Shown one piece after another: positions 23,284-45,768 of a DNA stretch of 64,000 nt; the stretch's first letter is position 1; every line of letters starts with the position of its first letter. The stretch comes from an uncultured Methanosarcinales archaeon (GTDB lineage: Archaea; Nanobdellota; Nanobdellia; Woesearchaeales; UBA583): positions 110,361 through 174,360 of the forward strand of contig CAYSDY010000002.1 in the NCBI GenBank assembly GCA_964429995.1, in the 5' to 3' direction. The notes beneath the pieces were generated by a model. The model was not told the origin of the DNA, did not search any database, and saw only the letters and a program-made list of their open reading frames with translations. A program made the position numbers and the translations under genes.

Positions 23284-24691
23284 AGCAAAATCAATTGAAG
23301 AATTATATGAAGAAACAAAAAACTATGACCTAGTTATTACTAATGATGCACCTTTGAATACGGCATTAAACAAAACTGTAAATAAACCAATGCTTGGTTC
23401 TTTTGCTTTGACTTCTAAATTAATTGGTTCCAAATATTCCGATTACTTGTTTGAAGAAGAACAACTAGATTTTCCAGAATTAGTTTTAAAAATTCAAAAA
23501 GAATTCAAAATAAATCTAAAAGAAGCTTTGTACTACATAAAAAATATAATGACTGTTTGGCAACATACAGGAAGTTTAGAAGAAAGTAAAAAATATCTAT
23601 CTAACAAAGAAAAAGATATAGTTAAAGTATTAGAAAAATTACCTACATATCAATTATCTATGCAAAGTATGAATTTAACTTTTTTAGATAAAACTAATAT
23701 CGCAACAATTGGAAAAGAAATTTTTAATGAATTAGATAAAAAAGTTTTAACTCTTCCTACAACTCAAATATCTACATTTACAGATAGAGAACATAAACTT
23801 GATACTATTTATCTTTTTAATTCTCAAAATGAAATTATAAATAGAGTTATTTCTATGATTAACAAAGATAATCAAAATGGAATTGCTATAGTTCTAAATA
23901 TTGAAAGTGATTATTTACCTCTAATTAAAGCAAGATTAATTAACAATGGAATTGAATTAAATGAAAAATTATTCTTATTTCAAGAATTTAGAACAAGAGA
24001 ATACTTGTCCATTATAGAAACATTCTACTCAATGCATAATATTTATACAAAAGAATTAACACCAATTGGAAATATATTTAATATTGATATTGACTCTTCT
24101 TTAGAAAATGCTTTATTTTTAGAATTATGTAAAGTAGATAAGAATGCTCAAAAGTTATTCAACTTATTACAAAATTTGAAAAAGAAAAGCTTCGGTGAAT
24201 TAGTTAAAGAACTTGAAAAGTATGATTTAAGATTACCTAAAGAATTTGTTGATGTTTTGTTTAAATTAGAATTATATAACACTCAAATAACTAAAAATAA
24301 ATTTTTAGAGTTGAAATATTTTATTGAAAATTTTGAACAAGAAATTGAGACAAATAAAATAGGAGTATTATTAATTGATGCAAAGAATTCAACTTATGTT
24401 AATAGAGATATTATTTTTTATTTAGGAATGGATTATTCTTGGACTAAAACAATTGAAGATGCTAAGTATATTGACAAAAAACAAGAACTTGAAAAAAATA
24501 TTAAAAAGTTTGAGATATTAATTCAGCAAGGAAAAGAAAGATTTTTCTTTATCCCAAAATATACTTCTGGAACAGATACAATTCCTCCCTTTTATTTTAA
24601 TTTTATATATGAAACTAATGTCGAAAATATTCTTCTAAGGTTTTTGATATTAAAGAAATTATTAACAAGAAGGAAATACAAGAATTTGTAA
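23273..24691 (+). CDS. Hypothetical protein, probably the N-terminal (inactivated helicase-like) part of an AddB-like protein whose nuclease domain is in the next reading frame
   Basis: 472 aa with no Walker motifs. Its frame ends 2 nt before an open frame that carries the nuclease N-terminal Cys motif, across a T5 homopolymer at 24641..24645. Confidence 0.4.
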   Translation: MITKAKSIEELYEETKNYDLVITNDAPLNTALNKTVNKPMLGSFALTSKLIGSKYSDYLFEEEQLDFPELVLKIQKEFKINLKEALYYIKNIMTVWQHTGSLEESKKYLSNKEKDIVKVLEKLPTYQLSMQSMNLTFLDKTNIATIGKEIFNELDKKVLTLPTTQISTFTDREHKLDTIYLFNSQNEIINRVISMINKDNQNGIAIVLNIESDYLPLIKARLINNGIELNEKLFLFQEFRTREYLSIIETFYSMHNIYTKELTPIGNIFNIDIDSSLENALFLELCKVDKNAQKLFNLLQNLKKKSFGELVKELEKYDLRLPKEFVDVLFKLELYNTQITKNKFLELKYFIENFEQEIETNKIGVLLIDAKNSTYVNRDIIFYLGMDYSWTKTIEDAKYIDKKQELEKNIKKFEILIQQGKERFFFIPKYTSGTDTIPPFYFNFIYETNVENILLRFLILKKLLTRRKYKNL

Positions 24692-24693
24692 AT

Positions 24694-25917
24694 AATCCTG
24701 TAACTAAATCTGCTGAAATAAAAATAAAAGAAACTATTTCAAATACAGCCTTAAACAATTTTTTATTATGTCCAAAAAAATATTCATACTCAACTTTAGT
24801 TTCAAATCTAGATAAAGAAGTATTTTTAAGAGGAAATTTAGTTCATGCATTTGCAGAATTCTATGTTAATAATCAAGAATTTGTAAAAAGTAAAGAGATT
24901 GAAGAATTTGTTGATATTATTATGAATAACTTAAAATTAATGTCTAATCCTTTTCAAAATAGTATTTTAAAAACTAAAATAAGATTTGCATGTATTGCAA
25001 TTGTTGATTTTATTGATAATCTTAAAATTGACGAAAGTCTTAGTTTTGAATCGTTTAAAGAAATTTCTAGAAAGAATGAAGAGAATGTATTTGCAAAGCA
25101 TTATTCTAAATCAATGGATAAACCTAATGCGGAATTAGAGTTCAAAGATAATGAATTAAAATTACATGGACTAATAGATTTAGCAGTAAATCAAGAATTA
25201 ATTATAGATTATAAAACCTCTAAAGATAGGAAAAAAGTAATTGATATTGTAAGAAATGCAAGTTTGAGAAACATTTCAGATAAATGTGATTTTCAACCTT
25301 TAGTTTATCTTTCAATATTTAGGAAAATAACTCCCAATAAAAAAATTCAATTTTGGTATAATTTTCCTATGACAGATATTTATGAAAAGATTGTAGGTAT
25401 TGAATTAGAAGAAGATAATAATGTTAAAGTTCATTATATTCCAACTTCATTTATAGATTATATTGTTTCAAAAGACTTTTATGATTATTTTAACGAAACA
25501 GCTCCAAAATATGCTGAACCGATATTGAGTTTAGTAGAAGATTTCTCTTATTTCAAAGATAAAGAAATCCCCGAAGAATTATTAGAAGAGTCAGATCAAG
25601 TCTCAGAATTATTATTTGAAGATTTTAATCAATATTTGATTTCATTAGGACTTAAAGATAATAAAACAAATAGCGGGAATGTATTAAAAGTTTTAAAAAA
25701 TGTATTTGCATTTAAAGTAGGACAACAATACAAACAAAAAGAAGTTTTCTTTTTCAAAGATGATTTAGATAACTTTGAAGAATATGTAAATCAAAGTATT
25801 AACAAAATGAATGAATACATTAAATCTAATTTCCCTTATGAACCAATAGATGGCGAAAACACTTGTAATAATTGTGATTTCAAAAAGCTATGTTTAAAGA
25901 GGTATGAGGTAAAATAA
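24694..25917 (+). CDS. PD-(D/E)xK nuclease with Fe-S Cys ligands (Cas4/AddB nuclease-domain-like); reading frame open upstream of first ATG (24922), likely frameshifted continuation of 23273..24691
   Basis: Upstream in-frame region has LNNFLLCPKKYSY (N-terminal Cys motif). Core has GLIDLAVNQELIIDYKTSK. C-terminus has CNNCDFKKLC (CX2CX5C). There is no ATG/GTG/TTG between the stop at 24616 and 24922. Confidence 0.5.
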   Translation, partial: NPVTKSAEIKIKETISNTALNNFLLCPKKYSYSTLVSNLDKEVFLRGNLVHAFAEFYVNNQEFVKSKEIEEFVDIIMNNLKLMSNPFQNSILKTKIRFACIAIVDFIDNLKIDESLSFESFKEISRKNEENVFAKHYSKSMDKPNAELEFKDNELKLHGLIDLAVNQELIIDYKTSKDRKKVIDIVRNASLRNISDKCDFQPLVYLSIFRKITPNKKIQFWYNFPMTDIYEKIVGIELEEDNNVKVHYIPTSFIDYIVSKDFYDYFNETAPKYAEPILSLVEDFSYFKDKEIPEELLEESDQVSELLFEDFNQYLISLGLKDNKTNSGNVLKVLKNVFAFKVGQQYKQKEVFFFKDDLDNFEEYVNQSINKMNEYIKSNFPYEPIDGENTCNNCDFKKLCLKRYEVK

Positions 25918-25918
25918 A

Positions 25919-26410: not shown

Positions 26411-26411
26411 A

Positions 26412-29243
26412 ATGGGAGCAAATACAAAACAAGATGCAGTAATTAAAAGTACAGATGGAATTTATATTGTAGATGCAGGAGCAGGAACGGGTAAGACATA
26501 TTCAATTACACAGAGATATTTAGAAATATTAAACAAAGGAGTTAATCCTAAAGATATTTTTTTAGTTACATTTACCAGAAATGCATCAACTCATATGAAG
26601 GAAAAAGTAATTTCTAAAGCTGATCCAAAAATAGCAACAGAGATAATAGATGCTCCAATACAAAACTTTGATTCTTTTTGTTTTAAAATTGTTTCAAAAT
26701 ATGGTTTGAATGCACCAAAGATATTAGGAATTGAAGATAATCTTTCAGGATATAAATTAATATCTCAGTCAGTTATACAAAAAAGAATATTTAATAAATT
26801 CTTTAATCAATTCTTAGAAGATAATCAAGATAAATATCAAAAATTATTAGTTTCAATATCAAATCAATTAGAAATACATTCTTTAATTGAGACATTATTA
26901 TCTAAAGGGATTTATCCTACAAAAACAGGATGGTTTTTAGATGCTGAAGATAAACTTAAAGGAGATTATAAATTATTTGCAGAACATTTTAATAAAATAA
27001 ATGAACCTGGAATTGGTGCTAAAGGACCAACTCAATCAGATTTATTAAGTAAGATGAAAACTAGGATTTCATCTAAAAGCTTTTTAGATATACCTGAGAC
27101 TATAGAAACTGAAAAACAAGTAAATCCTAAGTTGATAGATGATATATTTTATGATGATAGGGGAGAAATTATTGAATTTATTCATCATGTATTTATTGAT
27201 TACATTGAATATATGATTAAAGAAAATTCTATGACATTTTCATTAATTGCTATGTTTGCATTTTTAATTTTGTATAATGAAGATGAAGTAAGAAATATTA
27301 ATTCATTCGATTATATTATGGTTGATGAATTTCAAGATACTAATGAAATGCAATTTATGTTAATTCTTCTTTTATTAAAGAAACCTAATCTTTGCGCTGT
27401 TGGTGATTGGAAACAAGGTATTTATGGATTTAGAAATGCTACAATAAGTAATATTAGAGAGTTCAATACTAAGATTGAAAGATATAAAAATCAGTTAAAC
27501 AAAGAAAAGATAAGAATTTCATTTGATGTTTCTCAAATAACACCTCTTGATTTTGATGTAAATTATAGAAGTTCTCAAAAAATTTTAACTTTTTCTGAAA
27601 GGAGTTTAATTACAAAAGCAAGTAAGAATGAAACTATTGATATAGAAGATATTCAAAAAGATATTGTTTCCTTGAAAAGTAATTTTGAATATGATGAATG
27701 TAGTGAGATTAAGTACTATGAAGCAATTGACAAAGAAACTGAAATTAATTATATATTAGAAAAGATTCAAAATTTAGTAGGCAAGAAGACAATAAAATAT
27801 TTTGATTCAGAGATAAAAGAGTACAAAGAAAGATTTATTGATTTTAATGACATTGTAATTCTTTCAAGAACTAGGACTTTTGGCTTAGAAGTTCAAAAAA
27901 AAGCTAACGAATATAATATTCCTGCAGTTTATGAAGGAGGAATTAAACTATTTGAAGAAGAACCTTCAATTTTGCTTCTTGCTTGGTTAAAACTTTTATT
28001 ATATAAAAATAAAAGAGAAGCATGGATACCAATTCTTGAAAAAGAAAGTTATTCATATGCTCAGATTAAATATATTCTAGATAATAAAGAGTATCCTAAA
28101 GAGATTCTTGAATTTAGAGAACATTTGTTGAAAAATAGAAAGATAATAAACTATATTATTGATGAAATATTGAAAAGATATAATTTTACAGGTCCAGTTT
28201 CAAATGCAATGCTCAATATTTTAGATCAAATATTCCATTCAACTTTGATGTCAATAAGTGATTTAATTGTGTTCATTGAAGAAAATATTGAAAATGGGGA
28301 AACATACAATATTGAAATGGAAGGCTCGACTAATTCAATTAAAATTCAAACAATACATGGTTCAAAAGGATTAGAATATCCTATTGTGTTTGTTGTTAAT
28401 TGTAATCTTTCGAATTTCCCAAGTACAATCTCGGATAGTAACTCTTTAACATTTAACGAGATAGTAGGAATAAGAAATAAGAAGTTTTATTCTACTGAAC
28501 ATGAGTTTGTATTTGATAATTGGAAAACTGAACTTGCAAACATGGGATTATTTTCAGATATGGATGAAGAAAGAAGATTATTGTATGTTGCAATAACTAG
28601 AGCAATGTATGATGTTTATTTTACAGCTCACAGACCCTCCGAATTCTTCAATGAACTTTCAGGAGAAGAAAAAGAAGTTATTGAAGAGACTAAGATTGAA
28701 AAATTAAATTTAGTTGAAAAGCAAGAATCATCGACACTAAAAATTAATACTGTTATTGAGGCTAAAAATAAAGTACTAGGTGTTCATGATTTAATGAATT
28801 TTAAAGAGGGACAAAAAGGAAGAGGTATGGAATTTGGAACGATTATACATAAGCTTGCATTTAGATATATTAAAGGATTAAAGATAAGTTCTATTGATAA
28901 TGAATTTAAGCAAGACTTTGAGAATATTAAATCTTTTGTTGATACTGAGTTGAAATATGGGAAGCTTATGCCTGAGATTGATTGTTCTTTACCTATTGAT
29001 GGAACTTTAATTAGAGGAATAATAGATTTAGTTGTAGAGTTTGATAATAGAATTGAGATAATTGATTGGAAAACTGATTTAGTAAAAGATAATATTGAAG
29101 AATATTCTAAGCAATTATCTATTTATTATTATGTATTGAAGGCTATTTATCCTGATAAAGAGATTGTTTGTAAAATCTTTTGGACTTGTAAGGCGCAAGT
29201 TGATGTAGTTAAAGTTGTTGAATTAGGGGTGGTGATAGAGTAA
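26412..29243 (+). CDS. UvrD/PcrA-like SF1 helicase with C-terminal PD-(D/E)xK nuclease domain (AddA/RecB-like)
   Basis: VDAGAGTGKTYS (motif I), VDEFQDTN (motif II), IHGSKGLEYPIVFVV and LLYVAITRA (V/VI). C-terminal GIIDLVVEFDNRIEIIDWKTD is the nuclease motif. Confidence 0.8.
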   Translation: MGANTKQDAVIKSTDGIYIVDAGAGTGKTYSITQRYLEILNKGVNPKDIFLVTFTRNASTHMKEKVISKADPKIATEIIDAPIQNFDSFCFKIVSKYGLNAPKILGIEDNLSGYKLISQSVIQKRIFNKFFNQFLEDNQDKYQKLLVSISNQLEIHSLIETLLSKGIYPTKTGWFLDAEDKLKGDYKLFAEHFNKINEPGIGAKGPTQSDLLSKMKTRISSKSFLDIPETIETEKQVNPKLIDDIFYDDRGEIIEFIHHVFIDYIEYMIKENSMTFSLIAMFAFLILYNEDEVRNINSFDYIMVDEFQDTNEMQFMLILLLLKKPNLCAVGDWKQGIYGFRNATISNIREFNTKIERYKNQLNKEKIRISFDVSQITPLDFDVNYRSSQKILTFSERSLITKASKNETIDIEDIQKDIVSLKSNFEYDECSEIKYYEAIDKETEINYILEKIQNLVGKKTIKYFDSEIKEYKERFIDFNDIVILSRTRTFGLEVQKKANEYNIPAVYEGGIKLFEEEPSILLLAWLKLLLYKNKREAWIPILEKESYSYAQIKYILDNKEYPKEILEFREHLLKNRKIINYIIDEILKRYNFTGPVSNAMLNILDQIFHSTLMSISDLIVFIEENIENGETYNIEMEGSTNSIKIQTIHGSKGLEYPIVFVVNCNLSNFPSTISDSNSLTFNEIVGIRNKKFYSTEHEFVFDNWKTELANMGLFSDMDEERRLLYVAITRAMYDVYFTAHRPSEFFNELSGEEKEVIEETKIEKLNLVEKQESSTLKINTVIEAKNKVLGVHDLMNFKEGQKGRGMEFGTIIHKLAFRYIKGLKISSIDNEFKQDFENIKSFVDTELKYGKLMPEIDCSLPIDGTLIRGIIDLVVEFDNRIEIIDWKTDLVKDNIEEYSKQLSIYYYVLKAIYPDKEIVCKIFWTCKAQVDVVKVVELGVVIE

Positions 29244-29244
29244 G

Positions 29245-30693
29245 ATGATTGACTATAATAAAATAGAAACTATATTACAAACTTCAAAAGCTTTTGAGTT
29301 AATCAGAGTAAAGAATTTGCCTGAAATTCTTTCATTTTTATATAAAGAATTTAAGGAAGATAGTAATAGTACTTTAAAGTATGAAGAAGCCATAACTAAA
29401 CTTTCTAATTATTTAGATATATTGGAAAGTGAAAATGAAAATGATTTTTTAATTAGTAATTTTGAAAAAGCAAGAAAAGTATTAGACAAATGGTGTAAAA
29501 AAGAATTTTTGGTAAGGACTGAAGATTCTAAAGGTAATTGGAATATTTCTTTAACTCCTGAAACTAATAAAGTTATCTTGTGGATTGAAGATTTAGAAGA
29601 AAAAGATTTTATAGGTACTGAATCAAGGTTTCAACTTATATTTAATCAACTAAAAGATATAATTGAAAAAAGTACTTTAGATCCTGTTGAAAGAATAAAA
29701 CAATTAGAAGAAAGAAAAACTGAAATAGAAATAGAAATTCAAAATGTAAAAAATGGAATAATAAATCCTGTTGAGAATTATTTAATTCAAGAGATGTATG
29801 AAAATGTATTAAAAAATGCTAGAAGTTTAGTTTCTGATTTTTCAGAAGTTGAAAAAAATTTTAAAGAAATTATAAGTAAAATATATGAAGACCAAATTAG
29901 TCAAAAATATTCTAAAGGTTCAATTGTTATTAATACTTTTAATTCATTGGAAGCATTAAAAGAAAAAGATCAAGGAAAAAGTTTCTATGGATTTTGGCAA
30001 ATTTTATTTAATCAAAATGGTTCATCTCAATTAGATAAGTTAATTGGAGAAGTTCATTTAATTTTAGATGACAAGAAAATAAAAAATAAAGATTTCTTTT
30101 TAGAAGATCTTAGATTTCAATTACATGAAGCAGGGAAGAAAGTAATTGCTACAAATATTCTTTTAGCCGAAAGATTAAATAGGTTAGTAAACAACGAAAA
30201 TTTAAAAGAAAGTAAAAAAATATTTGAGACAATTAATGAGATTAAAAAATTAATGATTCAAAATGTTAATAATTCAAATAATATAAATAATTTAATGTGT
30301 ATAGAATTAAATCCTGAATTTAATTTTCCATTTGAAAGAAATCTTTTAGAATTAAGTTTTAAATCAAATATTAAAGAAATTATTTTACCTGAAATTAAAA
30401 TTAATCTGGAAGATATAAGTGAATTATTTTCATATGTTCCTGTAAATGAAACTGAGTTAAAAAATAGAATATTGGAACAAATAAAGGATAATAAAGAAAT
30501 TTCATTAGGGGAATTAACAAAGAATATCCCTATAGAGAAAGGAGTTGAAGAAATTTTAAAATATTATAGTTTAGCTTTAAATGATTTACAAAAGTTTTCA
30601 AATATTGATAATATTAATAAGGAGATAATTACTTTTGATTATAATAAACAAATAGGGTTAGAGGTACCTAAAATTATATTTACTAAAAATTAA
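29245..30693 (+). CDS. jetA: Wadjet JetA-like (MksF-like kleisin-type) protein
   Basis: 482 aa. It is the first of four overlapping genes whose sizes and order (482/196/1131/384 aa) match JetA/B/C/D. It has a coiled-coil middle and no catalytic motifs, as expected. Confidence 0.5.
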   Translation: MIDYNKIETILQTSKAFELIRVKNLPEILSFLYKEFKEDSNSTLKYEEAITKLSNYLDILESENENDFLISNFEKARKVLDKWCKKEFLVRTEDSKGNWNISLTPETNKVILWIEDLEEKDFIGTESRFQLIFNQLKDIIEKSTLDPVERIKQLEERKTEIEIEIQNVKNGIINPVENYLIQEMYENVLKNARSLVSDFSEVEKNFKEIISKIYEDQISQKYSKGSIVINTFNSLEALKEKDQGKSFYGFWQILFNQNGSSQLDKLIGEVHLILDDKKIKNKDFFLEDLRFQLHEAGKKVIATNILLAERLNRLVNNENLKESKKIFETINEIKKLMIQNVNNSNNINNLMCIELNPEFNFPFERNLLELSFKSNIKEIILPEIKINLEDISELFSYVPVNETELKNRILEQIKDNKEISLGELTKNIPIEKGVEEILKYYSLALNDLQKFSNIDNINKEIITFDYNKQIGLEVPKIIFTKN

Positions 30694-30694
30694 A

Positions 30695-31285
30695 ATGGAA
30701 AATAATGATACTAATTATGATGAAAAATCTATATATTCTGAAACTCTAATAAAATTACTTAAAGGTATTTTGTATAATGATGATGTTAATGCCTGGGATA
30801 ATTTAAGAATTTTTCAAAAAGATATAAGAAATTATTTTTTAAAAATAAATCTTGAATTAATTATTGATGAAGATAAAGGTTTTGCTTTTTTAAAACAAAT
30901 TGAAAATGATGAAAATAAAAATAATTTGCCAAAATTAATTAATAAAACTTCTTTAGGCTATGATTTAACTTGTTTTTTAGTAATATTGAGAGAATGGTTA
31001 GAAGATTTTAAGAAAAATTCAGCAAATTTATCAACTTTATATATTTCTGAAGAAGATATAAAGGAAAGAATCGAGTATTTTTTTAAACATAATACTGATG
31101 GTTTGCAATTAATTAAAAGAATTAAACATTTAATAAAAGAAACAATAAAATTAGGATTTATAAAAGAAATTAATAATTCAATAGAATTAAAATATGAAGT
31201 AAAAAGAAGTCTAGAAGCTAAAGTCAATGTTGATTTTCTAGAAAATTTTAAGGAGGAATTAGAGAAGAATGGAACTGAAAATTAA
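30695..31285 (+). CDS. jetB: Wadjet JetB-like (MksE-like) protein
   Basis: 196-aa acidic protein. N-terminal LIKLLKGILYNDDVNAWDNL...EDKGFAFLKQ resembles the conserved JetB/DUF4194 block. 1-nt gap to jetA and overlap with jetC. Confidence 0.5.
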   Translation: MENNDTNYDEKSIYSETLIKLLKGILYNDDVNAWDNLRIFQKDIRNYFLKINLELIIDEDKGFAFLKQIENDENKNNLPKLINKTSLGYDLTCFLVILREWLEDFKKNSANLSTLYISEEDIKERIEYFFKHNTDGLQLIKRIKHLIKETIKLGFIKEINNSIELKYEVKRSLEAKVNVDFLENFKEELEKNGTEN

Positions 31286-34200
31286 AGAATATGATGATTC
31301 CATTAGTGGTTTCAGATTAAATTTTATTGAAGTATATAATTGGGGTTTATTTCATGGAAATGTTCAAAGAATTAATCCTAATAGTAAAAGTTCAATTTTA
31401 TTGGGAGAAAATGGAGCAGGTAAGACAACATTAGTAGATGCAATTCAAACTATATTAGTTCCAAACAAATTAAGAGCATATAATCAATCTTCAGGAGCAG
31501 AGAATAAAAAAGATAGAAATGAGATTACATATATTCAAGGAAAATATGGAGAAATTAAAAATAATGAAACTGATAATAGTATAACTGAACAGTTTCTAAG
31601 AACTGAAAAAGGTGAGATATATTCTGTACTTCTGGCTTCTTTCTCAAATTTAGATAAAAAAGAAATATATACTTTAATTCAAATATTATGGTTTGGAAAA
31701 AATGGAATAAAAAAATTATATATTGTTTCAAATAAAGAATTAACTATTGATAATGATATTAGACCTTTTAATAATGATGCTAAATGGAGAAGAGATTTTC
31801 AAAAAGAATATGAGAAAAATCTAGTTTTATTTGAATTAGATAACTCTGGAAAATATTTTCATTTAATTCAAAAAATATTTGGATTAAGATCTGAAAAAGC
31901 TTTGAGTTTATTTTCAAAAACTATAGGAATAAAAGTTTTAGGTAGTCTAGATGAATTTATTAAGAATGAAATGATTGAAGATTATAACACAGAAGAAGAA
32001 TTTAGAGAATTGCATAAACATTATTTATCTTTATTATCTATTCATAAATCTATTCAAAAAGCGAAAAAACAAATTCTATTGTTAAAACCAATATTTGAAG
32101 AAAATAATGAACTTGAAAAAATAAATACTGAATTAAATAAAGTTCTTTTAATTGAAGAAAATATTGAACTATATTTTCAAAAGATTAAACTGGCAAAATT
32201 AATTGAAAATTCTGAATTAATAAATAAAGAAATTGTTAAAATTAAAATAGAGGTTAATAATATTATAGAAAGAATTAATAAATTTAAATTAAAAGAAAAA
32301 GAATTAGAAACAATGATTAATTCAGATGAACAAGGCAAATTAATAATTAATATTGATTCTCGAATTGAGAGTTTAAAAATAGAACAAAAAAAAGTACATT
32401 TTAAACATCAATCTTATATAGAACTTTGTGATCTTGTTGGAATAAATATTAATAATCTAAATGAAGAAAAATTTATTATTAATAATAATAAAATAAAACA
32501 AGAAATTGTTTTAGTAAATTCAGAATATGAGAAGAAAAAAGAAGAATGGGCTGATAAAAGAAATGAAGTTGAAAATTTAAGTACAAATATTAAAGATATT
32601 AGTGAAGAATTAAGTTCATTAGAAAACAGAAAAAACAAAATTGATTATAATTTGATAAAAGTTAGACATAAAATAATAACAGAATTAGGATTAAAAGAAT
32701 TAGAAATACCATTTGTTGGAGAATTAATTAAAGTAAAAGATTCGGAAAAAGATTGGGAGAAAGCAATTGAAATTGCATTAAGAAGTTTTGCTTTAAAACT
32801 AATAGTTCCTGAGAAACATTATTCAAAAGTAAATAAATATATAAAAACAACATTTTTAAACGAAAAAATTTCATATTACAAAGTTAATGATAATTTTATA
32901 ACTAATATTGAAGAACATGATAAAACTAAGTTTTTAATAAATAAAGTTGAAATCAAGGATGATACGCAATATTTTAATTGGATAAAATATAATATTTCTA
33001 GATACTATAATTACATTTGTACTGAAAATTTAGAAGAATTTGAGAAAGAGGATAAGGCAATAACTAAAGAAGGATTATTAAGAGATTATAATAAACATCA
33101 AAAAGATGACCGTAAAAATTTATTTGATAAAAGTAAATTTATATTGGGATGGAATAATGAAGATTTACTTAAAATTAAAAAAAACGAATTAGAATTTATA
33201 CGGAACCAACAAAAATTATTGAAAAGTGAAGAAATTGATTTTAAGAATCAATTATTAGCATTGGAAAATAAAAAAGAAACATTAAACGATTTAATTAAAT
33301 ATGATAATTATGAAATAGTTGATTTTAATTCAATTCTTATTGAGATTAGTAATTTAGAAAAAAATAAATTAAAAGTACAAAAGAATAATTCGAAAATAGA
33401 TGATTTTCAAAATCAATTAGAAAAAACTAAAGAAAAAATTGAAATAAATGATAAAAATAGAATAGATAAATTAAGTAAACAAAAGAACTTTGAAGATAAT
33501 TTAAATTTAATAAATGAAAAAATTGAATCAATTAAAATAATAGTTGAAAATTCTAAGTTAAATTTTGATATAGAAAAACTAATTGAAGAATTTTTAGAGA
33601 TTAATATTCTCAATTGGAATTTAAATAATTTTGAATCAAATCAAAGATTTGAAGAAAAGAAAATACAGCATTTAAAAGAAAAATTAAGAGAAGAAATAGA
33701 TAATAAATCTAAAAAAATTTTAGAATTAATGTCTGAATATAGAAATCCTAAAGATCAAAAAATACATGAGGATTTTCCAGAATGGATTGGTGAAAATAGT
33801 TTTCTTTCGATTAAAGTTGATTATTTATATGAATATATTGATAAATATAAAAAAATTGAATGTGAAGAATTGCCTGATGCAGAAGAACAATTTGAGAGAA
33901 TATTTGAAGAATCTATAATCTTTAAAATGGCTGATTTTCAAGAAGAATTGGAAAAAAGAAGAAAAAAAATAATAGAGAGTATTAGAGAATTAAATTTATC
34001 ATTAGAAAAAATAGATTTTACTTCATTTCCACAAACTTATATTAAAATAAATGAAGAGACAACCAACAATGAGTATATAAAAAAATTTAGAGAAGAACTT
34101 AGAGATTGGAAACCTAATGCAGGAGGTTTAAGTAGAGGTTACAATAAAGATGCATATGAAGAAAGCTTTAATAAAATTAAAATGTTAATAAATAAATTAT

Positions 34201-34664
34201 CAACTAATGATAATTATAGAAAATTTGTTATGAATGTTAAAAATTGGTTTACATTTTCAGTAAATGAATATTGTAGAGATGATAATTATTTAAGAAGGGT
34301 ATATCAAAGTACTAGTGAACTTTCAGGAGGAGAGAAAGCTCAATTAACATATGCAATATTAGGAGCTTCATTATCATATCAATTTAACATTGAGAAAGGT
34401 ATTAAATCTCAAAATTCATTTCGTTTTGTAATAGTAGATGAAGCATTTAGTAAACTTGATAATATTAAATCTAAATATTTGATGGAATTAATTAAAAAAT
34501 TACATTTACAAGTTTTAATAGTTACTCCTAATGAAAAGATGCATGTCGCTCAAGATTATGTTCAAAATGTTCATTATATAAATAAAAATGATAATATTTC
34601 CACTATAATGAATATGCCATATATTGAATTTGATAAATTAATAAATAAAAATGAAAATCTCTGA
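31269..34664 (+). CDS. jetC: Wadjet JetC-like SMC-family ATPase (MksB-like)
   Basis: N-terminal LLGENGAGKTTL (Walker A). About 800 aa of K/E-rich coiled coil. C-terminal LSGGEKAQLTYAILGA (ABC signature) and FRFVIVDEAFSKLD (Walker B). Confidence 0.75.
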   Translation: MELKIKEYDDSISGFRLNFIEVYNWGLFHGNVQRINPNSKSSILLGENGAGKTTLVDAIQTILVPNKLRAYNQSSGAENKKDRNEITYIQGKYGEIKNNETDNSITEQFLRTEKGEIYSVLLASFSNLDKKEIYTLIQILWFGKNGIKKLYIVSNKELTIDNDIRPFNNDAKWRRDFQKEYEKNLVLFELDNSGKYFHLIQKIFGLRSEKALSLFSKTIGIKVLGSLDEFIKNEMIEDYNTEEEFRELHKHYLSLLSIHKSIQKAKKQILLLKPIFEENNELEKINTELNKVLLIEENIELYFQKIKLAKLIENSELINKEIVKIKIEVNNIIERINKFKLKEKELETMINSDEQGKLIINIDSRIESLKIEQKKVHFKHQSYIELCDLVGININNLNEEKFIINNNKIKQEIVLVNSEYEKKKEEWADKRNEVENLSTNIKDISEELSSLENRKNKIDYNLIKVRHKIITELGLKELEIPFVGELIKVKDSEKDWEKAIEIALRSFALKLIVPEKHYSKVNKYIKTTFLNEKISYYKVNDNFITNIEEHDKTKFLINKVEIKDDTQYFNWIKYNISRYYNYICTENLEEFEKEDKAITKEGLLRDYNKHQKDDRKNLFDKSKFILGWNNEDLLKIKKNELEFIRNQQKLLKSEEIDFKNQLLALENKKETLNDLIKYDNYEIVDFNSILIEISNLEKNKLKVQKNNSKIDDFQNQLEKTKEKIEINDKNRIDKLSKQKNFEDNLNLINEKIESIKIIVENSKLNFDIEKLIEEFLEINILNWNLNNFESNQRFEEKKIQHLKEKLREEIDNKSKKILELMSEYRNPKDQKIHEDFPEWIGENSFLSIKVDYLYEYIDKYKKIECEELPDAEEQFERIFEESIIFKMADFQEELEKRRKKIIESIRELNLSLEKIDFTSFPQTYIKINEETTNNEYIKKFREELRDWKPNAGGLSRGYNKDAYEESFNKIKMLINKLSTNDNYRKFVMNVKNWFTFSVNEYCRDDNYLRRVYQSTSELSGGEKAQLTYAILGASLSYQFNIEKGIKSQNSFRFVIVDEAFSKLDNIKSKYLMELIKKLHLQVLIVTPNEKMHVAQDYVQNVHYINKNDNISTIMNMPYIEFDKLINKNENL

Positions 34665-35805
34665 GAAAATAATTAATACTAGTAAGAATAAATATTTGGA
34701 CTTTTTAAAAAGTATTATATTAAAAGATGAGAATTTTTTCCCATTAAGATTAAGAATAAAATTGCCACATCCAAAAAATAATTATTTAGAATTTTATGAG
34801 ACAATGAAGGAAATAAATTCCAAATCAAAAGAATCAATAAAATATGGTTATTTAATTTCTTTTAATCCTGGAATAAAAACTAGAGATGCAGGGACTCAAG
34901 ATATTCCTAATTCAGTTTTTTTTGAATCTGAAAAAGATTATTTATCATTTTTAAATAAAGAACAGGAAGTTAATCAATTTAAAAAAGATTTTAAGTTAAT
35001 TTTAACAAAGTATCCTGAATTGAAATCATGGATTGAAAGATTTCCAATTAAAATAATTAATTCAGCAGGATTATGGCATGATATATTGAAGGTCTGTGAT
35101 TATTTTTATTTGAACCCTAAACCTAATTTATATATTAGGGAATTGCCAATACAAGTTCATACTAAATTTATTGAAAATAATGAAGCAATAATTAGAGAAT
35201 TGTTAGACATATTAATTAGTAATGAAATTAACTCTTTAGAATTTGATTTTAAAAAAAGATTTAACTTAAAGTATGATCAATTTTTAATCAGAGTTAAAGT
35301 TTTGGATAAGAACATACTTTTGAAAAATAATTTGAATAACTCTTTTTTAGATTTTAGTTTACCACTAGATTTATTTGAGAAATTAAATTTAAATGTTGAT
35401 AAAGTATTTATTGTTGAAAATAAGATGAATTTTTTAACTTTCCCAAATATTGAAAATTCAATAATCATATCAGGTTCAGGGAATGGAGTCAATATTTTAA
35501 AGAATTCTTCTTGGCTTAATGAAAAACAAATTTATTATTGGGGTGATATAGATTCTCATGGTTTTGCAATTCTTTCAAGTTTTAAAAAATATTTCTCAAA
35601 TATAAAATCATTATTTATGGATTTTAAAACATATGATACATTTAAAGAGTTTGAAGTAAAAGGAGAAAAAACAGTTCAAGAAACTTTTTCTAATTTAACT
35701 GATGAAGAATTAAAAGTATTTAATTATGTTCATAGTAATAATTTAAGATTAGAGCAAGAAAGAATTTCTCAAGAATATATTATTAATAATTTGAAAAATG
35801 AATAA
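34651..35805 (+). CDS. jetD: Wadjet JetD-like protein with C-terminal Toprim domain (MksG-like)
   Basis: 384 aa. VFIVENKMNF (Toprim Glu) and YYWGDIDSHGFAI (DxD) lie in the C-terminal half. Overlaps jetC by 14 nt. Confidence 0.6.
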   Translation: MKISEKIINTSKNKYLDFLKSIILKDENFFPLRLRIKLPHPKNNYLEFYETMKEINSKSKESIKYGYLISFNPGIKTRDAGTQDIPNSVFFESEKDYLSFLNKEQEVNQFKKDFKLILTKYPELKSWIERFPIKIINSAGLWHDILKVCDYFYLNPKPNLYIRELPIQVHTKFIENNEAIIRELLDILISNEINSLEFDFKKRFNLKYDQFLIRVKVLDKNILLKNNLNNSFLDFSLPLDLFEKLNLNVDKVFIVENKMNFLTFPNIENSIIISGSGNGVNILKNSSWLNEKQIYYWGDIDSHGFAILSSFKKYFSNIKSLFMDFKTYDTFKEFEVKGEKTVQETFSNLTDEELKVFNYVHSNNLRLEQERISQEYIINNLKNE

Positions 35806-36958
35806 ACAACAACTATACCTAAAAAAGATTGAAAATGATGTTAATGAGAAAATATATGATTTGTTAATTCAACATCTAAAAGATGTTCATAAAGTACTTC
35901 CTAGAACTGATGATAATAAAGATTATTTAAGAGAGTTAAATAAACATCTATTCAAAGCATTAGAAGATTTAAAACAAACAAATAGATTTAACTACTTACA
36001 AAACTATAGACACTCAATTCTTATTATAAATACTATTCTTAGCTATAAACCTGATGAGAAACATCTAAAAGAAGTTAAGCTTTCAATATTAAATAGATTT
36101 TCCTCAGATATTATTTACGATAAAAAAGAGAAGATTCCATTAAAGTCTCAAATGACTGAACTTAGAATTACTTATGATACTAGCTATTTAATCTATCTTT
36201 TAGAAAAAGTTTTCATACCAAAAGAGATGTGGGATAAGGCAATGTATTGTTTAATTGCAATAGAATTAGTAGAACCAGATCATAACGATATTGATAAATT
36301 TAAAGAAATAATCACAAAACATCTAAAAAAAGAAGAATTAAAATATAAAGAATTTGAAGAACCTAAAGACTATATTATTCTTTTAGATACAAATATTATT
36401 TTAAATAAAGTATTATATGATGTTGGAGAATATAAAATATCTCATAACAAATTAGAAGAGTATAACTCTTTGATGGAAAAATGGGGAAATAACAATAAGT
36501 TTGTAATAACTAACTCTATAAAAGAAGAGTTAGACAAACAAATTAAATTTTCAATTGATACAGTAAACGATGTTTGTTCTAAGTTTAAACATTTTAATAA
36601 AAATGAAATTATTACAACACTTGAAAAGAGGTTTAATAATTTAATAAAAAAATATGCAATTGCAATAGAAGATAAACAATATGATTTAACAAATATTGAA
36701 AAATTCTACTCAAATTACTTAGGAAACTTATATGAAATAACTTTAGATAAAATCGAAAACAAGAAGTTATCTAAAAAATTAAAAAAACTCTCAGATAGGG
36801 AAGGTTTGCTTCCAGAAATAGGAGATCTGAAACTTTTAGCAGATGCAATTGAACTTAAGAAATCTAATTCAAAGGTAGCAATACTTTCAAATGATAAAGA
36901 CTTGTATTTATTTAATGAACAATTAGAAAAAGAATTTGGAATAAGAATTTACAAATAG
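35798..36958 (+). CDS. PIN-domain nuclease with long N-terminal helical extension, translationally coupled to jetD
   Basis: C-terminal domain has YIILLDTNIIL, KEELD, LLADAIE and LSNDKDL, the four acidic positions of PIN domains. Its ATG overlaps the jetD stop by 8 nt. Confidence 0.55.
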   Translation: MNKQQLYLKKIENDVNEKIYDLLIQHLKDVHKVLPRTDDNKDYLRELNKHLFKALEDLKQTNRFNYLQNYRHSILIINTILSYKPDEKHLKEVKLSILNRFSSDIIYDKKEKIPLKSQMTELRITYDTSYLIYLLEKVFIPKEMWDKAMYCLIAIELVEPDHNDIDKFKEIITKHLKKEELKYKEFEEPKDYIILLDTNIILNKVLYDVGEYKISHNKLEEYNSLMEKWGNNNKFVITNSIKEELDKQIKFSIDTVNDVCSKFKHFNKNEIITTLEKRFNNLIKKYAIAIEDKQYDLTNIEKFYSNYLGNLYEITLDKIENKKLSKKLKKLSDREGLLPEIGDLKLLADAIELKKSNSKVAILSNDKDLYLFNEQLEKEFGIRIYK

Positions 36959-37282: not shown

Positions 37283-38203
37283 TCAATGTTTAATCACCTC
37301 TAACACTTTTTCATATTCTTTTACTGCAATCTCTTTTTTGTTTAAATAATGAGTCATTCCAACATTTTTTGAAGTTGACCTTCCAGATATGAAGTTTGCT
37401 ATTTCAATTGCAACTCCTGCTTTAACCATTAAAGTAAATGAATACTTTCTTAGATATTTTAAATGAACTATTTTCTTATTATCTTGAGTATGATCTACAA
37501 ATCTATTGAAGTATGTTTTATCAAATTTGCCAATATGTTTTTTTAATTCATTATATAATTCTAATGTGAAGAATAAATAATAAGATGATTTCTGACCTCT
37601 TAAATAGAAATTATTGTAAGTAACTATGCCGTTTTCATGTATTTCTATGTTTTTTTCATCAAAATTTTCAAAGAAATGTTTAACTTCTGTTGTCCTAGCT
37701 GTTGTTTCAATATAGAATCTATATAATAAATAATGTAATCGATCATACTTAGAGACTTCTTTTACAGAGTTTTTAATTTCCAAACATGTTGGAATATAAG
37801 TATCAATATGAACTTCATTGTGAATTTTAATTCTTCTTCGGATATTTTCAATTATATCTAAGTCTAATATATCAAACTCTTCTAAGTAATTCAGCCATAC
37901 TCTAATTGCAACTCCTCCTTGTCTTTTGTTAATTTTTTCAAGAGCAATAGCATTTTTAATCTCTTCAATAGTATTAACACCAATCTCTTCAAACAATTTA
38001 GTTAGACAATTAAAAACAGATACTGCGTAAGTTCTTGTGAACTTTTTTAAAGTATATACTTTATATTCATTTTTTGTCTTAAAGTATATACTTTTTAATT
38101 TTATAAAATTTTGATTTTTTGGCGTAAAATTTTCTAGATTTCGAGAAATTTGCTGTTGATTAGAAATTTGAGAGGAGGCGTATTTGCCCCCTAGAGACGC
38201 CAA
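37283..38203 (-). CDS. int: Tyrosine recombinase / integrase (second paralog); reading frame is open through the adjacent tRNA-Ser gene, start undefined
   Basis: C-terminal RKYSFTLMVKAG...GRSTSKNVGMTHYLN (H..R...Y) and IETTARTTEV (R). The ORF track's longest frame (37283..38326) begins at a TTG inside the tRNA duplicate and reads through the tRNA. There is no ATG/GTG/TTG downstream of the tRNA until about residue 98. Relative to int 10821, the protein lacks about 60 N-terminal residues. Confidence 0.65.
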   Translation of the reverse strand: MASLGGKYASSQISNQQQISRNLENFTPKNQNFIKLKSIYFKTKNEYKVYTLKKFTRTYAVSVFNCLTKLFEEIGVNTIEEIKNAIALEKINKRQGGVAIRVWLNYLEEFDILDLDIIENIRRRIKIHNEVHIDTYIPTCLEIKNSVKEVSKYDRLHYLLYRFYIETTARTTEVKHFFENFDEKNIEIHENGIVTYNNFYLRGQKSSYYLFFTLELYNELKKHIGKFDKTYFNRFVDHTQDNKKIVHLKYLRKYSFTLMVKAGVAIEIANFISGRSTSKNVGMTHYLNKKEIAVKEYEKVLEVIKH

Positions 38204-38279
38204 GACAGGGATTTGAACCCTGAATTCCGAAGGAACTACATTAGCAGTGTAGCGCAATACCGAGTTATGCGATCTTGGC
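38198..38279 (-). tRNA. tRNA-Ser (anticodon GCU), no encoded CCA
   Basis: Minus-strand sequence gccaaga..ctaca-ctGCTaa-tgtag, long variable arm ttccttcggaatt, T-arm cagggttcaaatccctg, acceptor tcttggc plus discriminator g. The 7-bp acceptor and 5-bp anticodon stems pair perfectly. Confidence 0.8.
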
Positions 38280-38308
38280 ATTAGGTCTCTTTTTTTAGTC
38301 GCCGCCGG

Positions 38309-38348
38309 ATTAGCAGTGCTGCGCAATACCGAGTTATGCGACCTTGGC
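38309..38348 (-). repeat. Tandem partial duplicate of tRNA-Ser 5-prime half (acceptor/D-arm/anticodon loop, ~40 nt, 3 mismatches)
   Basis: Reads gccaaggtcgcataactcggtattgcgcagcactgctaat on the minus strand, versus gccaagatcgcataactcggtattgcgctacactgctaat in the tRNA. It lies 29 nt upstream of the tRNA 5-prime end. It is a likely att remnant. Confidence 0.55.
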
Positions 38349-38447
38349 TTTATAATATTTGTTTATAGTATTTCATTTATAATATTTTTGTTTTTGTTTT
38401 ATGGATAAATCTAAAGTTTTATAAATGAGATTTATTTTCCTTTTATT

Positions 38448-45646: not shown

Positions 45647-45768
45647 TATTCCTTTGAATAAATGAATACTTCAAAGGAATGATTAAAAATTGCAGTAAAA
45701 AAAAATGAGTGATAAATGCCCCATCATTTATGGCTGGGATAATTCAAATTTTGTGATTTTTGTTTTAT
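45647..45768 (+). repeat. Structured intergenic element, copy B; overlaps the last 13 codons of smc
   Basis: See 40404..40540. It lies between the convergent cca and smc genes. Confidence 0.6.

What the first reader, a model, noticed from the sequence alone, without database searches (positions are those of the whole stretch)
29245..35805. Complete Wadjet (JetABCD / MksFEBG-like) condensin-type anti-plasmid system in an archaeal mobile island
Four overlapping genes of 482/196/1131/384 aa in canonical order.

- JetC has Walker A (GENGAGKTT), an extensive coiled coil, the ABC signature (LSGGEKAQ) and Walker B (IVDEAFSKLD).
- JetD has the Toprim Glu and DxD (IVENK, WGDIDSHG).
- JetB has its conserved N-terminal block.

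Wadjet is mainly known from bacteria, with only scattered archaeal instances. Here it sits on an integrative element in a probable DPANN archaeon, implying horizontal acquisition.
Basis: partly seen in the sequence, partly recalled or inferred. Interest (0 to 1): 0.65.

Follow-up and report, generated by a model that had tools for sequence, protein, structure and literature searches.

The report
Type I Wadjet in DPANN archaeon
This is a complete, intact-looking copy of the known anti-plasmid system Wadjet (JetABCD), sitting in a defence-gene island of an uncultured DPANN (Woesearchaeota-like) archaeon; it is an unusual host for a well-understood system, not a new kind of system.

Summary
Four co-directional ORFs lie at exactly the stated coordinates (482/196/1131/384 aa). 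They match the type I Wadjet profiles over their full length: JetA1 4e-105, JetB1 4e-50, JetC1 2e-267, JetD1 7e-133. The ATPase motifs of JetC and the Toprim Glu and DxD of JetD are intact. JetC's only matches among solved structures are JetC chains, not SMC or Rad50, and the genome has its own hinge-bearing SMC 11 kb away.

The host is archaeal (archaellum genes, aIF2-gamma, Taw1, class I CCA enzyme). aIF2-gamma places it in Woesearchaeota/Nanoarchaeota, i.e. DPANN.

The operon lies in a region of about 27.5 kb bounded by two inward-facing archaeal-type integrases. The right edge is a tRNA-Ser gene with a duplicated 5' half. No flanking att pair or empty site was found, so mobility is plausible but not shown.

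The nearest JetC relatives are at most 39% identical, and every named one is bacterial. That is consistent with an old horizontal acquisition.

The neighbouring AddAB-like helicase-nuclease genes and the PIN_12 gene are independent modules. Their relatives elsewhere lack Wadjet.

Wadjet in archaea is already in the literature. Verdict: a new member of a known kind, of modest interest.

The parts
29245..30693 (+). jetA: kleisin-like subunit (DUF3375), 482 aa
   Evidence: PADLOC JetA1 3.9e-105, residues 2-481 on profile positions 2-489 of 489. Pfam DUF3375 3.1e-81.
30695..31285 (+). jetB: KITE / MksE-like subunit (DUF4194), 196 aa
   Evidence: PADLOC JetB1 3.5e-50. Pfam DUF4194 1.2e-30 and MksE 3.1e-10.
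31269..34664 (+). jetC: SMC-like ABC ATPase, 1131 aa. Walker A at 46-54 (K52), Q73, signature motif at 1018-1025, Walker B at 1055-1064 (D1057, E1058), H1102.
   Evidence: PADLOC JetC1 2.1e-267 over residues 8-1123. Pfam AAA_29 + SbcC_Walker_B and no SMC_hinge. Among solved structures only JetC chains match: 8as8 5.4e-49 and 8dk2 1e-42. The motif residues are invariant in a 24-sequence alignment. Only 24% identical to the host SMC, over the C-terminal ATPase segment.
34651..35805 (+). jetD: nuclease subunit, 384 aa. N-terminal DUF3322 domain plus C-terminal Toprim (JetD_C). Catalytic E256 and D299-x-D301.
   Evidence: PADLOC JetD1 7.1e-133 against JetD2 9.5e-08 and JetD3 2.5e-07. Pfam JetD_C 1e-42 and DUF3322 2.5e-34. 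It aligns to MksG 8b7f, to JetD(E248A) 8q72 and to JetD 7til. E256 falls on the mutated E248, and GDIDSHG aligns to GDMDSWG.
35798..36958 (+). Context, not a Wadjet subunit: 386-aa gene of a Woesearchaeota/Nanoarchaeia-specific PIN_12-related family. Its start overlaps the end of jetD by 8 nt.
   Evidence: No Pfam, PADLOC or NCBIfam hit for the protein itself. It has 30 homologues at up to 90% identity, and four of them carry PF16289 PIN_12. Three relatives (90%, 71% and 51% identical) sit in unrelated contexts without Wadjet.
26412..29243 (+). Context: AddA/RecB-like helicase-nuclease (UvrD domains plus a C-terminal PD-(D/E)XK domain), 943 aa. It ends 1 nt before jetA.
   Evidence: Pfam UvrD-helicase 1.5e-47, UvrD_C and PDDEXK_1. 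NCBIfam matches below cut-off to AddA, RecB and RecB-like helicase. Ten metagenome relatives of 41-63% identity were found, none next to jet genes.
23273..25917 (+). Context: AddB-like partner gene, split here by a frameshift into a 472-aa ORF (23273-24691) and a 331-aa PD-(D/E)XK ORF (24922-25917).
   Evidence: In seven relatives (L029, L031, L032, L034, L035, L036, L038) one long ORF matches both halves; in the three measured it is 868-915 aa. L036 residues 9-471 map to 23273-24634 in one frame, and residues 509-907 map to 24724-25908 in another.
37283..38281 (-). Context: archaeal-type tyrosine integrase (int2). Its reading frame runs through the tRNA-Ser gene.
   Evidence: Pfam Phage_integr_3 2.2e-26. 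Called as a 332-aa gene in independent contigs. 32% identical to int1.
38196..38280 (-). Context: tRNA-Ser(GCT), the right edge of the island.
   Evidence: ARAGORN. Rfam tRNA, 55.8 bits.
38309..38352 (-). Context: 44-nt copy (91% identical) of the 5' half of tRNA-Ser, 28 nt upstream of the intact gene. Possibly an att remnant.
   Evidence: Repeat family D3. It is the only repeat of the tRNA region anywhere in the window.
10821..11948 (+). Context: second archaeal-type integrase (int1), the putative left edge of the island.
   Evidence: Pfam Phage_integr_3 2.2e-24.
13954..19288 (+). Context: type III restriction-modification pair (Mod 848 aa, Res 938 aa) in the same island, with higher GC (0.31).
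   Evidence: PADLOC MTase_III 2e-153 and REase_III 2.8e-08. Pfam N6_N4_Mtase and ResIII. GC values.

Best explanation
The locus is a complete type I Wadjet (JetABCD, also called MksBEFG or EptABCD) operon in the chromosome of an uncultured DPANN archaeon of the Woesearchaeota/Nanoarchaeota lineage. It lies inside a tRNA-Ser-linked, integrase-bounded defence island.

**Shown here**
- All four subunit families are present at full length and in canonical order.
- The catalytic residues are intact.
- The operon is physically linked to archaeal core genes.

**Inferred mechanism, by homology to the characterised bacterial systems**
1. JetC dimers, bridged by the JetA kleisin and JetB KITE dimers, form an SMC-type motor that loads on DNA without sequence preference and extrudes it using ATP.
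2. On a small closed circle (up to roughly 50-100 kb in the bacterial systems) extrusion runs out of free DNA and stalls.
3. The stalled complex licenses the JetD Toprim dimer to cut the DNA, linearising the plasmid or circular viral genome.
4. Large chromosomes and linear DNA are spared.

**Also inferred.** The system was acquired horizontally, probably long ago, ultimately from bacteria.
For: - **ORFs and order:**
- **Full-length type I profile matches:** JetA1 3.9e-105, JetB1 3.5e-50, JetC1 2.1e-267, JetD1 7.1e-133. Type II and III models score at least 100 orders of magnitude worse.
- **Pfam domains:** all above curated cut-offs.
- **JetC identity:** only JetC chains are hit among solved structures. 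Walker A, Q-loop, signature, Walker B and H-loop residues are invariant in an alignment with 23 homologues.
- **JetD active site:** E256 aligns with the catalytic E248 of E. coli JetD, and the DxD motif is conserved.
- **Separate housekeeping SMC:** a hinge-bearing SMC lies at 45728-49363 and is only 24% identical to JetC, over the C-terminal ATPase segment.
- **Archaeal DPANN host:**
- **Real sequence:** identical in five independent assemblies.
- **Island context:**
- **Mechanism of the family:** Liu et al. preprint 10.1101/2022.10.04.510915 (circular DNA under about 100 kb is cut, ATP-dependent, all four subunits are needed). Roisne-Hamelin et al. 10.1101/2023.11.03.565488 and PMC10889018. 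Review PMC10586767.
Against: - No function was tested, and no archaeal Wadjet has been characterised biochemically in the literature I found.
- The proteins are divergent: at most 39% identical to any other JetC in 5.8 billion proteins, and about 26% to the best plasmid-borne copies.
- Two of the closest bacterial relatives (L027, L028) have jetABC with no adjacent jetD. Part of this clade may therefore work without the nuclease.
- Transfer is not supported by composition. jet GC3 is 0.09-0.14 against 0.14-0.23 for host core genes.
- The island has no demonstrable att pair.
Confidence: 0.85

Rival explanations
1. Wadjet here is one part of a larger co-transcribed 'cut-and-degrade' unit. The upstream AddAB-like helicase-nuclease would destroy the linear DNA that JetD produces. 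That is a job done by RecBCD or AddAB in bacteria, and archaea generally lack those enzymes. The downstream PIN_12 protein would be a further effector.
For: - Eight ORFs from 23273 to 36958 are separated by 1 nt or overlap, except at the frameshifted AddB junction. There is therefore no room for intergenic promoters.
- The 943-aa protein has the AddA/RecB architecture.
- JetABCD-cut DNA is fully degraded by RecBCD in vitro (10.1101/2022.10.04.510915).
- One 39%-identical relative (L017) also has a UvrD helicase just upstream of jetA.
Against: - The AddB-like partner is frameshifted in this window.
- Ten relatives of the AddA-like gene have no jet genes nearby, including two with 10 kb of downstream flank. 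Two of them sit next to type III R-M instead.
- None of the JetC relatives with readable upstream flank (eight bacterial genome loci and four metagenome contigs) carries a homologue of the window's AddA-like, AddB-like, orf163 or PIN genes.
- The L017 helicase is not detectably similar to the window's.
- PIN_12 relatives up to 90% identical occur in unrelated contexts.
Confidence: 0.1
2. It is a chromosome-organising MksBEF/MukBEF-type condensin rather than a defence system.
For: - JetABC are homologues of MksBEF and MukBEF (Pfam MksE hit and a weak MukB hit).
- The closest relatives L027 and L028 lack an adjacent jetD.
Against: - A full-length JetD with an intact Toprim active site overlaps jetC.
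- The genome has its own canonical SMC with a hinge domain.
- The operon sits among R-M, RhuM/PDC-S05 and RmuC genes between two integrases.
Confidence: 0.04
3. The archaeal assignment is an artefact: a bacterial Wadjet fragment joined to archaeal DNA by mis-assembly or mis-binning.
For: All named JetC relatives are bacterial. The source is metagenomic.
Against: - Two of the five independent assemblies (L001, L002) carry the same junctions, from the jet operon through the integrase and tRNA-Ser into aS21, PPIase and Taw1, at 100% identity across the jet genes. A third joins jetC-jetD to the integrase.
- The integrases on both sides are archaeal-type.
- Composition is host-like.
- The downstream PIN_12 gene overlapping jetD belongs to a Woesearchaeota/Nanoarchaeia-specific family.
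Confidence: 0.02

Closest known systems
E. coli GF4-3 JetABCD (type I Wadjet; PDB 8as8, 8q72)
   Same: - Same four subunits in the same order.
- JetC aligns end to end: residues 14-1122 against 12-1086, E 5.4e-49.
- The JetD Toprim domain aligns, with E256 on E248 and a conserved DxD.
- The presumed mechanism is the same: ATP-driven extrusion, then cleavage of small circular DNA.
   Different: - The host is a DPANN archaeon, not a bacterium.
- Sequence identity is low. The JetD match covers only the C-terminal 210 residues, at E 3.6e-11.
- The genes here are extremely AT-rich (GC about 0.21).
- No biochemistry exists for this copy.
Corynebacterium glutamicum MksBEFG (MksG nuclease, PDB 8b7f) and Mycobacterium smegmatis EptABCD
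   Same: Same system family. MksG is the best solved-structure match for the window's JetD, E 2.4e-14 over residues 147-379.
   Different: These are actinobacterial chromosomal systems, and their gene naming and order conventions differ. Here the system sits in an integrase-bounded archaeal island.
Pseudomonas aeruginosa PA14 JetABCD (PDB 8dk2, 7til)
   Same: JetC and JetD are homologous: 1e-42 and 6.6e-06.
   Different: More distant than the E. coli system, and bacterial.
MukBEF / MksBEF condensins and archaeal/bacterial Smc-ScpAB
   Same: An SMC-type ATPase with kleisin and KITE partners. The motor principle is loop extrusion.
   Different: - Those complexes have no nuclease subunit and organise chromosomes.
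- Smc has a hinge domain that JetC lacks in Pfam terms.
- The host's own Smc is a separate gene at 45728-49363.
Wadjet reported in Ca. Lokiarchaeum ossiferum B36 (Asgard archaeon)
   Same: An archaeal genome carrying a Wadjet system detected with PADLOC or DefenseFinder-type tools (bioRxiv 10.64898/2026.02.13.705702).
   Different: Different archaeal superphylum. I could not compare sequences. No paper in the searched library names Wadjet in Woesearchaeota. The two that mention both Wadjet and Nanoarchaeota did so only in passing where I read them.

Membership tests
Wadjet type I (JetABCD) | JetA: DUF3375 kleisin-like subunit, full length | tested here: met
   PADLOC JetA1 3.9e-105 covering profile positions 2-489 of 489. 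Pfam DUF3375 at 274 bits against a cut-off of 28.6.
Wadjet type I (JetABCD) | JetB: DUF4194 / MksE-like KITE subunit | tested here: met
   PADLOC JetB1 3.5e-50. Pfam DUF4194 at 106.8 bits and MksE at 41.1 bits, both above cut-off.
Wadjet type I (JetABCD) | JetC: MukB/MksB-like SMC ATPase with intact Walker A, Q-loop, signature motif, Walker B and H-loop, separated by a long coiled-coil region | tested here: met
   PADLOC JetC1 2.1e-267 over residues 8-1123. Motifs at 46-54, Q73, 1018-1025, 1055-1064 and H1102, invariant in 24 sequences. End-to-end alignment to solved JetC chains. The coiled coil itself was not predicted separately.
Wadjet type I (JetABCD) | JetD: N-terminal DUF3322 (CAP-like) domain plus C-terminal Toprim domain with the catalytic Glu and DxD | tested here: met
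   PADLOC JetD1 7.1e-133. Pfam DUF3322 2.5e-34 and JetD_C 1e-42. E256 aligns to E248 of E. coli JetD, and D299/D301 to its DxD.
Wadjet type I (JetABCD) | Four genes co-directional and contiguous in the order A-B-C-D | tested here: met
   Spacings are +1, -17 and -14 nt. The same order is seen in bacterial relatives L006-L014 and L017.
Wadjet type I (JetABCD) | Type I rather than type II or III | tested here: met
   Type I models win by very large margins: JetC1 888 bits against JetC2 31 bits, and JetD1 441 bits against JetD2 29.5 and JetD3 28.3. JetA and JetB hit only type I models. No tree was built.
Wadjet type I (JetABCD) | ATP-dependent cleavage of small circular DNA, or restriction of plasmids | not testable with these tools
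   Needs biochemistry or genetics. Inferred from homology only.
Housekeeping Smc-ScpAB | SMC hinge domain and ScpA/ScpB partners | tested here: not met
   JetC has no SMC_hinge hit, whereas the host Smc (45728-49363) has SMC_hinge at 3.1e-27. The JetC partners are DUF3375 and DUF4194, not ScpAB.
MksBEF / MukBEF condensin (no nuclease) | Three-gene system without a Toprim nuclease subunit | tested here: not met
   jetD is present, overlaps jetC and has an intact active site.
Rad50/SbcC-type or Lamassu (LmuB) SMC-like systems | Best profile or structure matches to Rad50, SbcC or LmuB, with Mre11/SbcD or LmuA partners | tested here: not met
   There are no LmuB hits in PADLOC, and only JetC chains are found among solved structures at E<=1e-3. 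No Mre11/SbcD-type neighbour is present.
tRNA-integrating archaeal integrative element (SSV/pNOB8-type integrase) | Tyrosine integrase of the archaeal type next to a tRNA gene | tested here: met
   Phage_integr_3 at 2.2e-26 (37283-38281) abutting and reading through tRNA-Ser. A second integrase lies at 10821-11948.
tRNA-integrating archaeal integrative element (SSV/pNOB8-type integrase) | Direct att repeats (a partial tRNA copy) at both ends of the element | tested here: not met
   The only repeat of the tRNA region is a 44-nt copy of its 5' half, 28 nt away (38309-38352). Nothing is found at the distal end with exact 12-mers or with 22-mers allowing 4 mismatches.
tRNA-integrating archaeal integrative element (SSV/pNOB8-type integrase) | Evidence of presence/absence polymorphism or excision | tested here: inconclusive
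   Every contig recovered with the flanking Taw1 gene carries the island or breaks inside the integrase gene. IMG/VR has no relatives.

The most novel reading that the evidence does not exclude
In this archaeon Wadjet is co-transcribed with a bacterial-type AddAB-like helicase-nuclease immediately upstream and a lineage-specific PIN_12 nuclease immediately downstream. Together they would form a self-contained 'linearise then degrade' module. It would supply the RecBCD/AddAB step that archaea normally lack, and it would let Wadjet work against circular archaeal viruses and plasmids in a reduced DPANN genome.
Probability: 0.1. Interest if true: 0.6.

Novelty: new member of a known kind. Interest (0 to 1): 0.3.

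Why it matters
Wadjet is one of the best-understood SMC-based immune systems, but all of its biochemistry comes from bacteria. A complete and apparently functional copy in a DPANN archaeon extends its documented host range to small-genome, probably symbiotic archaea.

A recent survey describes these lineages as lacking R-M and CRISPR-Cas and favouring compact single-gene defences (bioRxiv 10.1101/2025.04.20.649705). Here a defence island of about 27 kb carries a 6.6-kb Wadjet operon, a type III R-M pair and other defence-type genes.

Many archaeal viruses and plasmids are small circular dsDNA (my own knowledge). Wadjet could therefore be antiviral in archaea. This very AT-rich, divergent operon would be a candidate for testing whether the mechanism carries over. 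It does not change the understanding of how Wadjet works.

Tried and rejected
1. **Naming the organism directly.** The exact-sequence cluster look-up returned no names. I therefore inferred taxonomy from named relatives of aIF2-gamma.

2. **Island boundaries.** Exact 12-mers, and 22-mers with up to 4 mismatches, from the tRNA region found only the local 5'-half duplicate. The repeat finder gave only AT-rich chance matches. tblastn with the N-terminus of int1 found no int(N) fragment.

3. **Empty site.** Look-ups of the flanking Taw1 gene gave only island-bearing contigs, or contigs that break inside the integrase gene.

4. **The 386-aa gene as a fifth Wadjet gene.** Rejected. Relatives of 51-90% identity lie in unrelated neighbourhoods without Wadjet.

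5. **The AddA-like helicase as a conserved Wadjet partner.** Rejected as a general rule. It is kept only as a low-probability local coupling.

6. **Carriage by a virus or plasmid.** IMG/VR has no relative of JetD or the integrase. The plasmid collection holds only bacterial replicons, mostly Ralstonia megaplasmids, at about 26% identity.

7. **Population variation for a selection test.** The jet genes are identical in all assemblies, so nothing could be computed.

8. **Doron et al. 2018.** It could not be read.

Full report
**1.

The ORF listing gives four + strand ORFs at exactly the reported coordinates:

| Gene | Coordinates | Length |
|---|---|---|
| jetA | 29245-30693 | 482 aa |
| jetB | 30695-31285 | 196 aa |
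| jetC | 31269-34664 | 1131 aa |
| jetD | 34651-35805 | 384 aa |

- jetA and jetB are 1 nt apart. jetB/jetC overlap by 17 nt and jetC/jetD by 14 nt.
- All the quoted motifs are present. In JetC: GENGAGKTT at 46-54, LSGGEKAQ at 1018-1025 and IVDEAFSKLD at 1055-1064. In JetD: IVENK at 254-258 and WGDIDSHG at 297-304.
- Wherever five independent assemblies (ENA, Logan, JGI) cover the jet region it is identical base for base. Two of them carry all four genes, called at the same lengths. The ORFs are therefore not assembly artefacts.

**2. It is a type I Wadjet system**

- **PADLOC.** Full-length matches are JetA1 3.9e-105, JetB1 3.5e-50, JetC1 2.1e-267 (residues 8-1123) and JetD1 7.1e-133 (residues 3-383). 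Type II and III models score far lower: JetC2 1.1e-08, JetD2 9.5e-08 and JetD3 2.5e-07.
- **Pfam.** DUF3375, DUF4194 plus MksE, AAA_29 plus SbcC_Walker_B, and DUF3322 plus JetD_C all score above their curated cut-offs.
- **JetC against solved structures.** Only JetC chains match: E. coli GF4-3 8as8 at 5.4e-49 over residues 14-1122, and P. aeruginosa 8dk2 at 1e-42. No SMC, Rad50 or MukB chain reaches 1e-3.
- **JetD against solved structures.** It matches MksG (8b7f), JetD(E248A) (8q72) and JetD (7til). E256 aligns with the mutated catalytic E248, and GDIDSHG aligns with GDMDSWG.
- **JetC active site.** In an alignment with 23 homologues, the Walker A lysine, Q73, the SGG signature, D1057/E1058 and H1102 are invariant.
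- **A separate housekeeping SMC.** The genome has its own hinge-bearing SMC at 45728-49363. It shares only 24% identity with JetC, over the C-terminal ATPase segment.

**3. The host is a DPANN archaeon**

- The same contig carries Taw1, a class I CCA-adding enzyme, archaellum genes (FlaC/D/E and flagellin), aIF2-gamma and aS21.
- The best named relatives of aIF2-gamma are Ca. Woesearchaeota (68%) and Nanoarchaeota/Nanoarchaeia (58-67%). The nearest named hit outside DPANN (Methanomassiliicoccaceae) is about 50%.
- The gene that overlaps the end of jetD belongs to a family whose named members are almost all Woesearchaeota or Nanoarchaeia.

**4. The setting is an integrase-bounded defence island, but mobility is not shown**

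Two Phage_integr_3 integrases face inward. They lie at 10821-11948 (+) and 37283-38281 (-), and are 32% identical to each other.

The right-hand integrase abuts tRNA-Ser(GCT) (38196-38280) and reads through it. A 44-nt copy of the tRNA's 5' half, 91% identical, lies 28 nt further on.

Between the integrases lie:
- RhuM/PDC-S05
- a type III R-M pair with higher GC (0.31)
- a CARF-like gene, an SNase and RmuC
- a HATPase_c_3 protein
- an AddAB-like helicase-nuclease pair
- Wadjet
- a PIN_12-related gene

Evidence for mobility is missing. No distal att copy exists in the window. No island-free allele was recovered. IMG/VR holds no relatives. The region is therefore a tRNA-linked, integrase-bounded defence island, and current mobility is unproven.

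**5. Relatives and origin**

- In a 5.8-billion-protein collection the nearest JetC is 39% identical. Every named hit is bacterial: Sericytochromatia, KSB3/Moduliflexus, Chitinophagaceae, other Bacteroidota, and Bacillota.
- The genome scan returned 11 loci, all bacterial.
- Three of the unnamed nearest hits were looked up. Two contigs are bacterial by their neighbours (SmpB, L33 and SLH in one, PorP in the other); the third, L017, has no diagnostic neighbour genes.
- Plasmid-borne relatives are all bacterial, at about 26% identity.
- The jet genes are at least as AT-rich as the host: GC3 0.09-0.14 against 0.14-0.23.

Horizontal acquisition, ultimately from bacteria, is the simplest reading. 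It is not recent, or else the donor was equally AT-rich. This lineage is also sparsely sampled: its nearest aIF2-gamma is only 69% identical.

Two of the closest relatives (L027, L028) have jetABC with no adjacent jetD.

**6. The neighbouring genes are not Wadjet parts**

From 23273 to 36958 the ORFs are 1 nt apart or overlap, apart from the gap at the frameshifted AddB junction. That suggested a larger operon, so I tested it.

- **AddA/RecB-like gene.** The 943-aa protein has ten metagenome relatives at 41-63% identity. In seven of them one long ORF just upstream (868-915 aa in the three measured) matches both the window's 472-aa and 331-aa ORFs. The AddB-like partner is therefore frameshifted in this window, near 24.62-24.72 kb.
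- **No jet genes near those relatives.** None has jet genes nearby. Two lie beside type III R-M genes.
- **No AddAB or PIN genes near JetC relatives.** None of the JetC relatives with readable upstream flank (eight bacterial genome loci and four metagenome contigs) has homologues of the window's flanking genes.
- **PIN_12-related gene.** The 386-aa gene has relatives at 51-90% identity in unrelated contexts. One is next to a Cas12a CRISPR locus.

These are independent modules that happen to be packed together here. A local functional coupling stays possible. JetABCD-cut DNA is a RecBCD substrate in vitro (10.1101/2022.10.04.510915), and archaea generally lack RecBCD and AddAB (my own knowledge). 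I give this about 10%.

**7. Mechanism (inferred by homology)**

This follows Liu et al., Roisne-Hamelin et al. and Pradhan et al..

1. JetA, JetB and JetC form an SMC motor that extrudes DNA using ATP.
2. On a closed circle of up to roughly 100 kb, extrusion stalls.
3. The stalled complex activates the JetD Toprim dimer to cut at a sequence-independent position.
4. Linear DNA and the large chromosome escape.

What is shown here is that all subunits and catalytic residues are intact. Activity, targets and the size limit in this archaeon are all inferred.

**8. Novelty**

- Reviews state that Wadjet occurs in bacterial and archaeal genomes (PMC10586767).
- A cultured Lokiarchaeon strain is reported to encode it (10.64898/2026.02.13.705702).
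- No paper in the searched library names Wadjet in Woesearchaeota. The two that mention both Wadjet and Nanoarchaeota did so only in passing where I read them.
- One survey describes DPANN as lacking R-M and CRISPR-Cas and favouring compact defences. A multi-gene island of this size is mildly at odds with that picture.

**Verdict.** This is a new member of a known kind. It is well supported and of modest interest.

Noticed in passing
window 23273-25917: The AddB-like nuclease gene next to the AddA-like helicase is split by a frameshift near 24620-24724. The result is a 472-aa ORF and a 331-aa PD-(D/E)XK ORF, where seven relatives have one long ORF (868-915 aa in the three measured). It could be a pseudogene, a sequencing error in an AT-rich run, or programmed frameshifting.
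   Followed up: partly
window 38196-38352: The integrase ORF (37283-38281) starts exactly at the 5' end of tRNA-Ser and reads through the whole tRNA gene. A 44-nt copy of the tRNA's 5' half (91% identical) lies 28 nt upstream. This looks like the scar of an SSV-type integration, or of repeated integrations, but no matching distal att site exists in the window.
   Followed up: partly
L022 1273-6980 (ENA ERZ27249683 k141_427766): A contig with archaeal core genes (ArgRS, HisRS, FEN1) and a 90%-identical copy of the window's PIN_12-related gene carries a Cas12a-Cas4-Cas1-Cas2 (type V-A) locus. That is notable because a recent survey says DPANN archaea lack CRISPR-Cas. I did not verify the contig's taxonomy.
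   Followed up: no
window 35798-36958; L022 10001-11161: The PIN_12-related gene overlaps its upstream neighbour by the same 8 nt in two unrelated contexts: jetD in the window, and a 167-aa gene in L022. Homology begins essentially at its start codon, as if the gene moves as a discrete cassette.
   Followed up: partly
L027 7973-13408; L028 7851-13399: Two of the closest JetC relatives, one in a Sericytochromatia MAG and one on a contig that looks like Bacteroidota, have jetABC but no adjacent jetD. These may be nuclease-less Mks-like variants inside a type I clade, or jetD may be encoded elsewhere.
   Followed up: no
L029 and L035 (metagenome contigs): The AddB-like / small ORF / AddA-like module lies directly downstream of type III R-M genes in two unrelated contigs, and the window's island also holds a type III R-M pair. 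This may be a recurrent R-M plus helicase-nuclease association.
   Followed up: partly
window 21868-23283: A 471-aa protein with a GHKL/HATPase_c_3 (sacsin- or MORC-like) N-terminus overlaps the start of the AddB-like gene by 11 nt. It has no PADLOC hit and its role is unknown.
   Followed up: no
window 59778-61907: A single 709-aa ORF fuses phosphoglycerate kinase (PGK, 2.6e-101) with a PfkB-family sugar kinase (2.5e-47). This is an unusual fusion of glycolytic enzymes.
   Followed up: no
window 6840-9630: A radical SAM/SPASM protein sits next to separate PPDK_N and PEP-utilizer domain proteins, the latter with a weak peptidase C39-like region. This could be a peptide-modification cluster just outside the left integrase.
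   Followed up: no
window 1223-4657 and 40646-43537: Two large ORFs (1144 aa and 963 aa) have no Pfam hit at all.
   Followed up: no
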